Shown here: piece after piece, positions 54,001 to 60,000 of the stretch
Numbering within the stretch: position 1 is the first letter of the stretch
How the letters are laid out: every line of letters starts with the position of its first letter
NCBI RefSeq assembly: GCF_001447785.1
Contig: NW_015165305.1
Coordinates: forward strand, 274,415 to 338,414
Source: Gekko japonicus
Lineage: Eukaryota
Reading direction: 5' to 3'
Length of the DNA: 64,000 nt
Made by a program: the position numbers

Positions 54001-57000
54001 CAGGGCAGCTCTTCAGATGATGAACTTACTATTCAAACAACAGGGCCTAGAAAGTTTCCAGCGTTCCTCTCTTCACCGACCCTTAAGGCCAGGGAGGAAC
54101 TGAAGGACATAGAAAGCCAAACAAGGACCTTCTTTTGGGGAGAAAAGCCTCACCAATGTCGTGAGTGTGGGGAGAGCTTCAGAGTGAAGCAAGAACTTGC
54201 TTTGCACAAGAGAATCCACTGGCGGGAGAGGCCCTTCCCCTGTGCTGTTTGCGGGAAGANNNNNNNNNNNNNNNNNNNNNNNNNNNNNNNNNNNNNNNNN
54301 NNNNNNNNNNNNNNNNNNNNNNNNNNNNNNNNNNNNNNNNNNNNNNNNNNNNNNNNNNNNNNNNNNNNNNNNNNNNNNNNNNNNNNNNNNNNNNNNNNNN
54401 NNNNNNNNNNNNNNNNNNNNNNNNNNNNNNNNNNNNNNNNNNNNNNNNNNNNNNNNNNNNNNNNNNNNNNNNNNNNNNNNNNNNNNNNNNNNNNNNNNNN
54501 NNNNNNNNNNNNNNNNNNNNNNNNNNNNNNNNNNNNNNNNNNNNNNNNNNNNNNNNNNNNNNNNNNNNNNNNNNNNNNNNNNNNNNNNNNNNNNNNNNNN
54601 NNNNNNNNNNNNNNNNNNNNNNNNNNNNNNNNNNNNNNNNNNNNNNNNNNNNNNNNNNNNNNNNNNNNNNNNNNNNNNNNNNNNNNNNNNNNNNNNNNNN
54701 NNNNNNNNNNNNNNNNNNNNNNNNNNNNNNNNNNNNNNNNNNNNNNNNNNNNNNNNNNNNNNNNNNNNNNNNNNNNNNNNNNNNNNNNNNNNNNNNNNNN
54801 NNNNNNNNNNNNNNNNNNNNNNNNNNNNNNNNNNNNNNNNNNNNNNNNNNNNNNNNNNNNNNNNNNNNNNNNNNNNNNNNNNNNNNNNNNNNNNNNNNNN
54901 NNNNNNNNNNNNNNNNNNNNNNNNNNNNNNNNNNNNNNNNNNNNNNNNNNNNNNNNNNNNNNNNNNNNNNNNNNNNNNNNNNNNNNNNNNNNNNNNNNNN
55001 NNNNNNNNNNNNNNNNNNNNNNNNNNNNNNNNNNNNNNNNNNNNNNNNNNNNNNNNNNNNNNNNNNNNNNNNNNNNNNNNNNNNNNNNNNNNNNNNNNNN
55101 NNNNNNNNNNNNNNNNNNNNNNNNNNNNNNNNNNNNNNNNNNNNNNNNNNNNNNNNNNNNNNNNNNNNNNNNNNNNNNNNNNNNNNNNNNNNNNNNNNNN
55201 NNNNNNNNTACTAACCATTCCCATATGGATGCATTTTCTGGGGCAGTGAATGACAAGGGGAAAATCTCTTAATCCAGTACATTCTGCCCCATGAGCATGC
55301 TGGTAATAAAAAGACAAAAATTCACTTACATCTCAGGGATGGGGAGGTTTGTTTTTTGTTTTTTTAATAAAGGTGAACAAATAAAATATGATATCTCTGC
55401 CATTGTTGCATGGAAGATTATTAACTGGATACCACAGAAGATTGCTGCATATAACCCAAAGTCATTGTATATGTAGAAGTTCTAAAAGTTACTCCTTGGG
55501 GCCTCCTTGTGCTAAATAAAAGTGATTGTATCCCCACCATCTTTTCCATGCACACCTGACATAGTGCAAGATACCTCTTCTCATAAAATTTCAAAACCAA
55601 ATTAAATGAGATCATGTGTACCAACTGTTGTACATTCCATGTGGTTGTTATTAAAATTACATGGAGATGCTACACATTATTGCAGCTGTGCTAACTGCTT
55701 GCACAAGTGGAATTGCACAAAGTTCATTTTTTGCTCACAGAGTGGTTCTAATGGAGTTATCTCCATTAACTTTTTTGTGTTTTTCTGCATCTCCTGCAAA
55801 CGGCTCTAAGGAGACACTTCAAGCAAAAATTCTGCTGCATCTTTAAGATCATAAGAGGAACCCTGCTAGTTCAGCCCAGTGGACCATCTAGTTCATCATC
55901 CTGTTTTATTTTACTAGTTTCCCTGGAGGGCCAAGCTACAGGGCATAGAGGCCAAAGCCTCCCCTGATGTTGCCTCCTAGAAGTGGTGTTCAGAGATTTA
56001 TCGACTCTAAAAATGGAGATTCCCTTTAGTCACCTTGGCTAGTAGCCACTGATGAACCTATCCTCCTATCCTCTGATGAACCTATTCTGTCTAATCCCAT
56101 TTTGAAGTCATCCATGCTTATGGCCATCACCAGCAAGTGAGTGCATTCTTTCAACCCCTGCTGGTCAGAATATTATTTTGCATATAGACTGTGTTTTTAT
56201 TAGTGACCGTTCCCTGTAAGGTATGTTAGTATTATTATTAGGAGGCTATGACTGGCTTACCGAAGGCTTCCTGGGAGTTCATGACCGTGGACTTGAACCA
56301 CAGACTTTGGTTTCCACCCCAGGTCCATATTTTATGCAGTATCAGGTGGTAAAATATGTATGAAAGATGGAGAGTGAGGACTCCATAAGCTGAAATGCAC
56401 AGGTGAGCTGGCTCACAAGTAGCTAAGTTCACACTGGCTGAGATGAGCAAGCATTGTTTCCAAGTAATTTTACTTTCCTCCGATGTGGACCTGTCCTGAA
56501 ATTGCTCAAACTGGTCTTCACGGGCTCCTCCTGTGGTGGCCCTTCAGTCACCTGCTTTCCATAAGAAGATACTAGTTGCAGTTGGCAGGCATTCGAACCA
56601 GAGCACAGCAAAGGGACCTGTACCGTACAGGCTTGTGTGTCTAGTCTGGGCTGGTCTATATGGGAGAGCGCATCAGAAACTTTATGCAGAATACCATTCC
56701 CCCCTCCGTACGTGCATGTATTTTTACGAGATGGGTAGCTGTATTAGTTTGTCTAGCAGCAGAGAAGAACAAGAGACCAGTAGCATCTTAAAAACTTTTT
56801 TCAGGTAGTCTTTAAGGTGTTACTGGATTCTTCCTCTTTTTCTACTGTATTTTTACAGTGTTTCTTCTTCCACAGATGAATTCAGAGTAATTTTTTTCAT
56901 TCTCCCCCCCCATATAACATATATANNNNNNNNNNNNNNNNNNNNNNNNNNTATTTTTATTTTTTCAATAAGACTACAAACTACAAAGAAAAATATAGGA

Positions 57001-60000
57001 AGGGGAACTACAACTATGGATAAAGGAAAGAAACCCACACTAACTAAAAACCCAAGAGTGGGAGACCCCCTTTATGTTAACCTTAATATTAGTATTAAAA
57101 GAGTTAGTAAAACAATATACTTGTAGTTCTTGTTTTTCACATTGTTCTATATTAGTAAATTAGTTATTATGAGAGAATGTTCTGAGCATCTTCTTTATTT
57201 CAAAGAGCCATTTATCAGAGTCCTTCTGCCCTTACTTCGGCTTTCTGTCTCTAAAATCATATACAGTTTTCATTGCTCCCGCACCCGCTTCTGCAACAGA
57301 GTCCTCATCCGTTCCCGAGGCAGCTGAGTCACTTGACTTAGTTTCTTCCTCTTTAGATTCTTCCCCCGATCCCAGCTGGCATTTCAAGAATTCCTTGGCT
57401 TTGAACATGGAGTCTATCTTCTCCCTTCTATCGTTGATTTTAAAGATGACAGATTCAGGATTCGCCCACCTGTACTGTATACCATTTGTTTGAAGAAAAG
57501 TAATTAACTCCTTGTAGCTCTTTCTCTTCTGACGAATTTCAAATGGAATGTTTTTTAAAGTCTTGATAATTGTATTCCCAAATTTCAGTGGAGTTGCTGA
57601 AGTTGCCTTTAATATAGCATCTCTGGTCTGTCTTCTTGCAAATCTCACCACAATCTCTCCAGGCAGGCTAATTTTTTAAATATAATTTGACTAAGCTTTA
57701 NNNNNNNNNNNNNNNNNNNNNNNNNNNNNNNNNNNNNNNNNNNNNNNNNNNNNNNNNNNNNNNNNNNNNNNNNNNNNNNNNNNNNNNNNNNNNNNNNNNN
57801 NNNNNNNNNNNNNNNNNNNNNNNNNNNNNNNNNNNNNNNNNNNNNNNNNNNNNNNNNNNNNNNNNNNNNNNNNNNNNNNNNNNNNNNNNNNNNNNNNNNN
57901 NNNNNNNNNNNNNNNNNNNNNNNNNNNNNNNNNNNNTCTTCTTTTTCTGTCTCAGGAACCCCCTGGTACCTGAGAATCATATTAGCCTTTTCCATTTGCA
58001 ACTGCAGCAAACGATTTTCTTGAAGATTTTGTTTCATTTCCAATTCACCCATTCTTTTCTTCATCTTCTTGCTTGAGGTGTCCATCTCTGTAACTTTCTC
58101 AGCCACCAGCTCCACTTTTTTCCTGTTTCTGCCAGCTGTCGCTGTTGTGAAGGGAAGTTTTGATTTAACGAGGTCAGTTGCTGGTTAATACCATCGAGCT
58201 GATCCATCACTGGCTTGAGCATATCCGCTAACCGCTTCATGACGTCAGCTCCCTCTTCCGGCCTCGGACTCTGAGTACCAGGCTTCGCTTTAAACTTTCC
58301 TCGGGATGCTGCCATTTTTCAACTTTATTTACACTCAAACAGCTTCTCCCAGGCTCGAAGCACTTGTCAATTTGCTATTTGCACTCAAGTAAGTCTTTCA
58401 AAATACACACGCTGTCTGTTTCCTCCCACCCCCCCTTCGCTGCATTTATCTGTCCTTGCACTTCAGAGGCGTCCCTCTTTGCGCTCCGCTTTTCCCACGG
58501 GGGGGGTGCCGTTTATCAAAGTTCATTTACTTAGAACTCACGTTCATTGTTGGTCACATTCCTGACCTCGCTCACATCAATCGTTGCTCCGCTCGGTCTC
58601 CCCCGCTTGTCCTGGTCGGGTTAGCTTGTGCCCTAAGGCCACTCATTGGTAGGACAGTCAGAGTGGAGAGAAGCCTCGACTCTCCGGCAGCAAGCCGTCA
58701 AAGAGGCTATCCCTCAAAGCTCTCTGGCCTGGAGCCTTTCACAAAGGCTCCGTGGGAGTGCCACTTGAGGTGGCACCCCTCCATGCTAATCGCCTCCCCA
58801 AGCTCTGGGGAGAGCGACCGCCATCGCCAATCCATAGACCGGAAGTACCCCATATATTTCTATGTCAACTCTAATTTTGATGTGATTTGGTTGTTGGAGT
58901 TGATATCGGATGATCTGGGAGTTCTGGCAATTAAATTAATGGTGGCTCATTAGCACACGTAGGTAGTCACTTGAATCAATGAAGAATAAGCACAGAAGTG
59001 CGAACTGATCCTAAGGCATCCTAGGTTTGACTTGGGGTGTATAGCTTTTGCTGTCACTCAGGGTCTGACTGGTGTTATGTCAGGTATGGGGGAAATTTGC
59101 CACAATGTCACTGGTGGCTTTAGGCAGCATACGTTCCCTGAGTTTCTGCCAGCAATTTGGAGATAATAAAATCAACCTACCTTAAGGAGTTGTAAGAATT
59201 ACTGAGATGATGCCTGGGAAGTGCTATGCAGAGTATAAAGCAATACGTAAATGTTAAAGGTTGGATTTGTATAGACATATTGATTTTTAAAAGTTTCCTG
59301 CCTTCTCCTGGGATGTCTTTCTAATAACAGGCTGTGCCTTATTTCCTGTTGCAAGCCAAATGGTGGGCCAGATGGCCTGAACAACTTTATAACCCACATT
59401 CTTCACACTTCCATGCTAGAAGCTAGACCTCATGGCTCCACACTCTGGCCCACTTGCGACCAGTCACGTACACAATGAAGTACCTGGAGTTTGGGTCAGA
59501 TGACTGCAGGCGAGGTCCCAAACGTATAGCCTATCCCCACATGCAGCTATGACAACCAACAATTGGCCACACCCCCTGTCCACTCGTGATTGGCCGAATG
59601 GCCACGGCTAATCATGATTAGATTGGGGTATAATTGATTGATCCCTATGGGAGTGAGCTTTCTTGCTCTCGCTCTCTCCCCTGTCATTGTCTGTTTTATT
59701 GCACCTGAAATGCTGTCTCTTGGAAAACAAAGACCTGCTTTGTGAATTGGACCACATGCTGTGCAAGATGGAATTTCTCTTCAAAATCCCTTGGTATATA
59801 GTTGGACTGTTGGATGTTCCTGAATTGGTAACTATGTATCTTTAATGTGTAGTTAAGGCAAATTGCCCTAGCCTTTGTTATTTTGTAATCTAGTCTGTTT
59901 GCTGTGCTCTGTACTGAATAAAGATCCTTCTTATTTCTAATGGTCTCTGAGGTTGTAACTTGGATTCCAAGTCTAAAATCTTGTGCCTAACGCTCACCAC

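What the first reader, a model, noticed from the sequence alone, without database searches (positions are those of the whole stretch)
56952..58850. Full-length ORF1-only L1 derivative (HAL1-like) in a squamate
Seen: an intact-looking 5' end (ETS ACTTCCGG plus YY1-like GATGGCGG), a ~535-bp CpG-rich 5' UTR, a ~1.08-kb ORF1 with an acidic tail, then only ~280 bp ending in a T-rich stretch, AATAAA and an A-run. There is no endonuclease or RT sequence. Both flanks share catatat, a possible TSD partly hidden by 26 N. Established: 'half-L1' non-autonomous elements encoding only ORF1 are described mainly from mammals. Inference: an independently derived reptile HAL1 family that parasitises L1 ORF2p. 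This copy is inactivated.
[Added by the scan's program, not by the reader: the finding's places include an assembly gap (unread letters, written N; its length is only estimated) at 57701 to 57936. Whether the letters on both sides are continuous or in frame is not known: test that first.]
Basis: partly seen in the sequence, partly recalled or inferred. Interest (0 to 1): 0.7.

Follow-up and report, generated by a model that had tools for sequence, protein, structure and literature searches.

The report
ORF1-only L1-like retroelement copy
This is one damaged copy of a jumping-gene relative that kept only the first of the two LINE-1 genes, a known kind of parasite-of-a-parasite, but whether it belongs to a whole family in this reptile-like genome could not be tested.

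Summary
The described features are present, on the minus strand (sense 58850 to 56952). They are a 534-nt CpG-rich leader, a broken ORF1, a 280-nt non-coding AT-rich tail ending in AATAAA and an A-run, and no endonuclease or RT.

ORF1 identity was not visible to Pfam or PDB directly. It is solid through relatives:
- A profile of 71 relatives hits the two larger pieces at E 3e-40 and 2.5e-11.
- The family profile hits human L1 ORF1p at E 1.7e-15.

Gap test: the two sides of the 236-N gap are colinear with the same protein. About 84-93 nt of ORF1 should be hidden, so 236 is probably an over-estimate. The frame across the gap cannot be judged.

The tail shows no trace of an ORF2 start, which favours an RNA that truly lacked ORF2. 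A 9-nt flank match (P about 0.013) is a weak TSD.

The "family" claim is untested. There is no second copy in the window, and no eukaryotic genome collection was available. The closest relative is only 50% identical. A one-off truncated or spliced L1 RNA remains a serious rival.

Verdict: a plausible HAL1-like element, a new member of a known kind, of modest interest.

The parts
58848..58856 (-). candidate 5' copy of a target-site duplication (9 nt), directly upstream of the ETS-like motif
Evidence: This is the longest exact word shared by the two flanks. P is about 0.013 both in random window pairs and in shuffled flanks. The word is low complexity.
58317..58850 (-). non-coding, CpG-rich leader (putative 5' UTR with internal promoter)
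   Evidence: It is 534 nt, GC 0.54, with CpG o/e 0.65 against 0.18-0.20 in the flanks. It holds no tandem monomers and has no copy elsewhere in the window. Promoter function is inferred.
58839..58846 (-). ETS-like motif ACTTCCGG
   Evidence: 4 matches in the window against 0.90 expected.
58818..58825 (-). YY1-like motif GATGGCGG
   Evidence: 2 matches in the window against 0.44 expected.
58116..58316 (-). ORF1 segment A: start codon and N-terminal part, up to the frame change in the A-run 58116-58121
   Evidence: tblastn aligns P0001 residues 1-60 to 58294-58115 at 39% identity. The match to the family profile is not significant on its own (E 0.63).
57939..58115 (-). ORF1 segment B: end of the coiled coil and start of the RRM, in a second frame
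   Evidence: A profile built without the window row gives E 2.5e-11 at profile positions 75-142. P0001 residues 66-119 align at 56% identity.
57701..57936 (.). assembly gap inside ORF1 (236 N)
   Evidence: In 69 relatives the segment between the two anchor columns is 32-35 residues. About 84-93 nt should therefore be hidden, not 236. No letters were filled in.
57232..57699 (-). ORF1 segment C: rest of the RRM, the C-terminal domain, the acidic tail and the stop codon 57232-57234. It holds two in-frame stops, at 57691-57693 and 57676-57678.
   Evidence: The profile gives E 3e-40 at positions 181-298, and phmmer gives 4.4e-36 to P0001. In 16 of 18 columns conserved at 70% or more, the window keeps the consensus residue.
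56952..57231 (-). non-coding 3' tail, AT-rich with a pyrimidine-rich stretch
   Evidence: It has GC 0.30 and 0 CpG, with stops in all frames. It has no Pfam match. A look-alike of an ORF2 start is not significant (P 0.28-0.38).
56956..56961 (-). AATAAA near the 3' end, followed by a short A-run
   Evidence: A second AATAAA lies at 57194-57199.
56926..56951 (.). assembly gap (26 N) where a poly(A) tail would lie
   Evidence: Its content is unknown.
56908..56916 (-). candidate 3' copy of the target-site duplication, 9 nt beyond the gap edge

Best explanation
This is one retrotransposed copy of an L1-clade element. Its RNA carried a CpG-rich leader (probably an internal promoter), ORF1 and a short non-coding tail with a poly(A) signal, but no ORF2. 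It is an ORF1-present, non-autonomous L1 derivative with the architecture of mammalian HAL1.

Proposed mechanism: the RNA is transcribed from the leader. Its own ORF1 protein (coiled-coil trimer, RRM, C-terminal domain) coats it. Endonuclease and reverse transcriptase are borrowed in trans from an autonomous L1, which primes on the A-rich 3' end and leaves a short target-site duplication.

Shown: ORF1 homology and colinearity, and the absence of any ORF2 trace.

Inferred: promoter function, mobilisation in trans, and, least securely, that the source was a heritable ORF1-only lineage rather than a single accident.

My confidence is about 0.75 that the inserted RNA lacked ORF2. It is about 0.45 that the copy belongs to an ORF1-only lineage.
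For: ORF1 identity:
- The exhaustive search gave 158 relatives at E<=1e-3, most of them 260-400 residues long with the match in their C-terminal half.
- A profile of 71 relatives, built without the window row, hits only the element's pieces among 1,722 six-frame pieces of the window. The E-values are 3e-40 and 2.5e-11.
- The family profile hits human L1 ORF1p structures: 2ykp E 1.7e-15, plus 2yko, 2ldy and 2w7a.

L1 clade:
- P0025 continues from its ORF1-like part into sequence matching human L1 ORF2p (8uw3, E 6.6e-25).
- P0111 continues into an Exo_endo_phos domain.
- P0041 continues into an ORF2-like start.
- All three sit in the same 32-row group (SH-aLRT 99) as the window's ORF1.

No ORF2:
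- In P0041 the ORF2 start lies about 17 codons after the position of our stop codon.
- Our 280-nt tail has stops in all frames, no Pfam match and no significant likeness to that start.

Boundaries and state:
- A 9-nt flank match abuts the 5' motifs (P about 0.013).
- 16 of 18 conserved columns are kept, so the source ORF1 was probably functional not long ago.

Distinct small ORF1 clade:
- The window groups with P0001 and P0146 (SH-aLRT 93). None of these shows ORF2.
- P0001 is a complete-looking 305-residue protein from a 1,540-nt contig.
Against: - Only one copy was seen. Nothing else in the window resembles any part of it.
- No genome of this organism could be searched, so "family" has no direct support.
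- No relative closer than 50% identity was found among 1.84 billion representatives. The three word-index searches also found none.
- The contig with the ORF1 end and the tail has gaps on both sides, so its place rests on scaffolding.
- A real poly(A) tail is not seen.
- The TSD candidate is short, TA-rich, ambiguous in register, and separated from the gap edge by 9 nt.
- Each 5' motif is near chance on its own.
- Direct Pfam and PDB searches with the window's own pieces found no L1 domain.
Confidence: 0.45

Rival explanations
1. One-off event: an RNA from an ordinary autonomous L1 lost ORF2 and was then copied in trans once, with no lineage of its own. ORF2 could have been lost by premature polyadenylation in a long spacer after ORF1, or by splicing from just after ORF1 into the 3' UTR.
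For: Both routes are documented for human L1.
- A passage in PMC4859970 says 3'-truncated L1 RNAs that keep ORF1 may be retrotransposed.
- Spliced L1 insertions are described in PMC5860796 (abstract start only).

The tail holds two AATAAA signals. Only one copy was seen.
Against: The tail has no trace of an ORF2 start. In the one relative whose junction is visible, ORF2 begins about 17 codons after the ORF1 end. Truncation would therefore need an unusually long spacer. Trans-mobilisation of ORF2-less RNA is inefficient in human cell assays (recalled, not checked here).
Confidence: 0.3
2. Not an ORF1-only insertion at all. Either it was a longer L1 insertion that later lost ORF2 by genomic deletion, or it is a scaffold artefact in which a contig from another copy (56952-57700) was placed here, or a gap hides kilobases.
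For: The window has seven gaps in 64 kb. Two lie in or at the element, and the middle contig is bounded by gaps on both sides. The 236-N estimate disagrees with the expected 84-93 nt.
Against: - The run from the ORF1 end through the stop and the 280-nt non-coding tail to the A-rich end lies within one contig.
- The two sides of the inner gap are colinear with one protein, and the missing segment has a fixed size (32-35 residues in 69 of 69 relatives).
- A deletion leaving no ORF2 remnant needs both breakpoints in short non-coding stretches.
- The flank word after the 26-N gap fits an element end there.
Confidence: 0.12
3. A processed retrocopy of a host gene that was itself domesticated from L1 ORF1, analogous to mammalian L1TD1.
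For: The leader has ETS-like and YY1-like motifs and a CpG-island composition, as many housekeeping promoters do (recalled). The layout of ORF, 3' UTR and AATAAA is that of an mRNA.
Against: No annotated orthologue was found. The best match anywhere is 50% identical and comes from an unnamed 1,540-nt contig. [quoted passage not shown]
Confidence: 0.05

Closest known systems
HAL1 (half-L1) elements of mammals
   Same: They encode only ORF1, end in a poly(A) tail, are flanked by TSDs and depend on L1 RT/EN (passage in PMC5322556). They are a non-autonomous derivative of L1 that arose several times (passage in PMC5753468). They retain an internal promoter (passage in PMC8535693).
   Different: In the passages read, HAL1 is described only from mammals. 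The searches HAL1+lizard, HAL1+reptil* and HAL1+squamat* found no reptile report in the held library. Here only one copy is known, and its ORF1 is far from the mammalian one, detectable only by profile. The primary paper (Bao and Jurka 2010) is not held, so its details were not seen.
ORF1-present bipartite non-autonomous LINEs in general (HeT-A, Ag-Sponge)
   Same: They keep the 5' and 3' parts of a LINE plus one ORF1-like protein and are created by internal deletion (passage in PMC5786205).
   Different: Those derive from the Jockey and CR1 clades. This one derives from the L1 clade.
3'-truncated or spliced L1 RNAs retrotransposed in trans (ORF1mneoI assays, SpIREs)
   Same: An RNA with ORF1 and no ORF2 is copied by ORF2p from another element (passage in PMC4859970).
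   Different: Those are single events from autonomous parents. They predict ORF2 or spacer sequence after ORF1, and no ORF2 trace is detectable here.
L1TD1 (domesticated L1 ORF1 gene of mammals)
   Same: It is an ORF1-derived protein without ORF2 (PMC4161310, abstract and passages).
   Different: L1TD1 is a host gene. This locus carries disabling lesions and retroelement-like ends.

Membership tests
L1 ORF1p (coiled coil - RRM - C-terminal domain; Pfam Transposase_22) | Significant sequence similarity to L1 ORF1 proteins | tested here: met
   The test is met through relatives only.
- Profile without the window row: E 3e-40 and 2.5e-11 for two pieces.
- Family profile against human L1 ORF1p 2ykp: E 1.7e-15.
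- Transposase_22 appears in 11 of 39 relatives at E<=0.01, 4 of them above the curated cut-off.
- Direct Pfam and PDB searches with the window's pieces found nothing.
L1 ORF1p (coiled coil - RRM - C-terminal domain; Pfam Transposase_22) | Complete RRM domain | tested here: inconclusive
   Profile positions about 143-180 fall in the 236-N gap.
L1 ORF1p (coiled coil - RRM - C-terminal domain; Pfam Transposase_22) | Three-domain fold | not tested
   Structure prediction accepted no jobs.
L1 clade | ORF1 of this type sits upstream of an L1-type ORF2 in relatives | tested here: met
   Three relatives show it: P0025 (L1 ORF2p, E 6.6e-25), P0111 (Exo_endo_phos) and P0041 (ORF2-like start). They lie in the same group as the window's ORF1, with support 99.
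HAL1-like non-autonomous L1 derivative | ORF1 only: no endonuclease or RT between the 5' end and the 3' A-rich end | tested here: met
   subject to the two gaps.
HAL1-like non-autonomous L1 derivative | Poly(A) tail | tested here: inconclusive
   AATAAA and a short A-run are present, followed by 26 N.
HAL1-like non-autonomous L1 derivative | Target-site duplication | tested here: inconclusive
   There is a 9-nt shared word with P about 0.013. It is low complexity and its register is ambiguous.
HAL1-like non-autonomous L1 derivative | Many copies sharing the same ORF1-to-tail junction, each with its own flanks | not testable with these tools
   There is no other copy in the window. The only genome collection open holds bacteria and archaea.
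HAL1-like non-autonomous L1 derivative | ORF1 kept under purifying selection among copies | not testable with these tools
   The only indirect sign is that 16 of 18 conserved columns are kept.
HAL1-like non-autonomous L1 derivative | 5' and 3' parts derived from an autonomous L1 of the same genome | not testable with these tools
   No autonomous L1 DNA of this genome was available.

The most novel reading that the evidence does not exclude
A long-lived ORF1-only L1 lineage arose independently outside mammals and has its own ORF1 clade. That clade is the window copy, P0001 and P0146, which are at most about 50% identical yet share N- and C-terminal ends. The lineage would have persisted as a parasite of autonomous L1s in squamates. 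This copy may be young, because its three lesions all sit at error-prone assembly positions.
Probability: 0.25. Interest if true: 0.55.

Novelty: new member of a known kind. Interest (0 to 1): 0.3.

Why it matters
If it is a family, it would show that ORF1-only parasites of L1 arise outside mammals as well. Squamate genomes hold many low-copy L1 lineages (abstract and passages of PMC3787681). That would give a natural system to ask whether carrying one's own ORF1 protein helps an RNA to capture ORF2p in trans. If it is a single accident, it is an ordinary by-product of L1 activity.

Tried and rejected
- Direct Pfam, NCBIfam and PDB searches with the window's ORF1 pieces gave no L1 hit. Homology came only through relatives.
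- Word-index protein searches found nothing closer than P0001. The 147-residue piece was tried with longer and with near lengths, and P0001 was tried itself.
The Atlas did not hold the two proteins tried. Structure prediction accepted no jobs. As a result, source names, taxa and fold stayed unchecked.
- A look-alike of an ORF2 start in the tail (nine residues in frame 0) was tested against the one visible ORF2 start (P0041) and rejected. The score was 20, and P was 0.28-0.38 against shuffles and random pieces.
- Relaxed tblastn of the ORF2 parts of P0025 and P0111 against 55209-57300 gave a best E of 2.3.
- An empty-site reconstruction from repeats in the flanks failed. The immediate flanks are single-copy in the window.
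- The leader has no tandem monomers, and the element has no Rfam family.
- The bacterial promoter and terminator scan is irrelevant to this eukaryotic sequence.
- Bao and Jurka 2010 is not held.
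Full report
**Where and what.** The element lies on the minus strand; in sense it reads from 58850 down to 56952. The window has seven N-runs. Two touch the element: 57701-57936 (236 N, inside ORF1) and 56926-56951 (26 N, at the 3' end). 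The contig that holds the ORF1 end and the tail (56952-57700) therefore has a gap on both sides, and its placement rests on scaffolding.

**Gap test, done first.** tblastn places the closest relative, P0001 (305 residues), colinearly on the element:
- residues 1-60 on 58294-58115;
- residues 66-119 on 58100-57939;
- residues 152-302 on 57690-57235.

Residues 120-151 fall in the gap. In 69 of 69 relatives that have residues at both anchor columns, this segment is 32-35 residues long, with a median of 32. That means 96-105 nt are expected, and 12 of them are read, so about 84-93 nt should be hidden where 236 N are written. As written, the two sides are out of frame. Because the gap length is only an estimate, this says nothing about the frame. 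The sides are continuous in the sense that they are consecutive parts of one ORF1. Whether the extra 140-150 nt reflects an over-estimate or an insertion is unknown. No letters were filled in.

**Observation.**
- Motifs. The ETS-like and YY1-like motifs are present at 58839-58846 and 58818-58825. Each is close to what chance gives in 64 kb: 4 found against 0.90 expected, and 2 found against 0.44 expected.
- Leader. It is 534 nt with CpG o/e 0.65, against 0.18-0.20 in the flanks.
- ORF1. It begins at ATG 58316, directly after an in-frame stop, and ends at 57232-57234.
- Lesions. There is a frame change in the A-run at 58116-58121, and there are two in-frame stops at 57691-57693 and 57676-57678. 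All three sit at positions where assemblies err, so the inactivation is likely but not certain.
- Tail. It is 280 nt, GC 0.30, with no CpG and with stops in all frames. It ends in AATAAA (56956-56961) and a short A-run that runs into the 26-N gap.

**Is it ORF1?** Pfam, NCBIfam and PDB searches with the window's own pieces found no L1 domain. The exhaustive search with the 147-residue C-terminal piece found 158 relatives at E<=1e-3. Most are 260-400 residues long and match in their C-terminal half. I built a profile of 71 of them without the window row and ran it over all 1,722 six-frame pieces of the window:
- the C-terminal piece scored E 3e-40;
- the middle piece scored E 2.5e-11;
- the N-terminal piece scored E 0.63, which is not significant;
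- no other piece of the window was significant.

The 72-row profile hits human L1 ORF1p structures: 2ykp at E 1.7e-15, plus 2yko, 2ldy and 2w7a. Transposase_22 appears in 11 of 39 relatives scanned, 4 of them above the curated cut-off. The window copy keeps the consensus residue in 16 of 18 columns conserved at 70% or more.

**Is it L1 clade?** Three relatives continue from the ORF1-like part into ORF2 sequence:
- P0025 matches human L1 ORF2p at E 6.6e-25;
- P0111 has an Exo_endo_phos domain;
- P0041 has an ORF2-like start.

In a quick tree of 80 rows, these three and the window's ORF1 share a 32-row group with support 99. Inside it the window joins P0001 and P0146 (support 93), then P0002 (support 85).

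**Is ORF2 absent?**
- None of 107 ORFs of 90 or more codons in the window has an RT or endonuclease domain. One search listed 108 such ORFs. The one not sent is the ORF1 C-terminal piece, already scanned.
- tblastn with all 150 relatives hit only the ORF1 region, apart from zinc-finger matches of P0025.
- Relaxed tblastn of the ORF2 parts against 55209-57300 gave a best E of 2.3.
- 0 of 5 tail pieces match any Pfam family.
- In P0041 the ORF2 start lies about 17 codons after the position of our stop. A nine-residue look-alike in our tail is not significant (P 0.28-0.38).

The tail is therefore non-coding, not a stump of ORF2.

**Ends.** The longest word shared by the flanks is 9 nt, at 58856-58848 and 56916-56908, with P about 0.013. 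It abuts the 5' motifs, but it is TA-rich and lies 9 nt beyond the gap edge. I rate the TSD as possible, not shown. The immediate flanks are single-copy in the window, so no empty site could be rebuilt.

**Interpretation.** The inserted RNA most likely had ORF1 and no ORF2. That is the architecture of HAL1 as described in the passages read:
- ORF1 only, a poly(A) tail, TSDs and dependence on L1 RT/EN (PMC5322556);
- several independent origins in mammals (PMC5753468);
- one of the ORF1-present bipartite non-autonomous LINEs made by internal deletion, together with HeT-A and Ag-Sponge (PMC5786205).

A single copy cannot tell a lineage from an accident. 3'-truncated ORF1-bearing L1 RNAs may also be retrotransposed (PMC4859970 passage), and spliced L1 insertions exist (PMC5860796, abstract start). 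The missing ORF2 start argues against simple truncation inside ORF2. It does not argue against a long spacer or a splice.

**What stayed unchecked.**
- Any other copy in the source genome.
- The origin and flanks of P0001, which comes from a 1,540-nt contig.
- The fold and Atlas neighbours.
- The primary HAL1 paper and all supplements.
- The host. A squamate is plausible from two 5S-rRNA-like SINE heads and a SCAN zinc-finger cluster. The link of these to squamates is recalled, and the copies were not compared with any named SINE.

**In print?** The searches HAL1+lizard (6 papers), HAL1+reptil* (6 papers) and HAL1+squamat* (3 papers) returned no report of a reptile HAL1. The one chameleon paper matches only on a lamp name. 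These searches cover only the held library.

**Verdict.** The ORF1-only reading of this copy is reasonable. The family claim is open. If it is a family, it is a new member of a known kind.

Noticed in passing
window 29753-30973 (-), 44426-45538 (+), 25518-26051 (-): There are two long ORFs with SCAN domains (E 6e-39 and 5e-38) and one with C2H2 zinc fingers. The element sits in a SCAN zinc-finger gene cluster.
   Followed up: no
window 13291-14748 (-), with arms 12183-12523 and 17829-18169: An open 486-codon ORF carries DUF5575 N, central RNaseH-like and C domains, plus a ZSWIM1-3 RNaseH-like match. It lies between 341-nt inverted arms that are 94% complementary. The same repeat also occurs at 3356-3571 and 35255-35432, so the arms may simply be dispersed short repeats.
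   Followed up: no
window 6475-6593 (+), 38471-38577 (-), 50380-50450 (-): Two full-length 5S-rRNA-like matches (44.2 and 43.7 bits) and one tRNA-like match are probably SINE heads.
   Followed up: partly
window 53011-53456 and 61652-61977: A repeat pair (94-96% identical) carries the same ACTTCCGG motif on the minus strand. It is unrelated to the element by blastn.
   Followed up: no
window 49225-50198: A tandem duplication with a period of about 510 nt, 96-99% identical (families D2 and D5).
   Followed up: no
window 58393-58950 (+): A 186-codon stop-to-stop ORF lies antisense to the element's leader, with no Pfam match. It is probably a by-product of the GC-rich leader.
   Followed up: partly
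P0001: The closest relative is a complete-looking 305-residue ORF1 from a contig of only 1,540 nt. That is too short to hold an ORF2. The contig could not be fetched, so this says nothing yet.
   Followed up: partly
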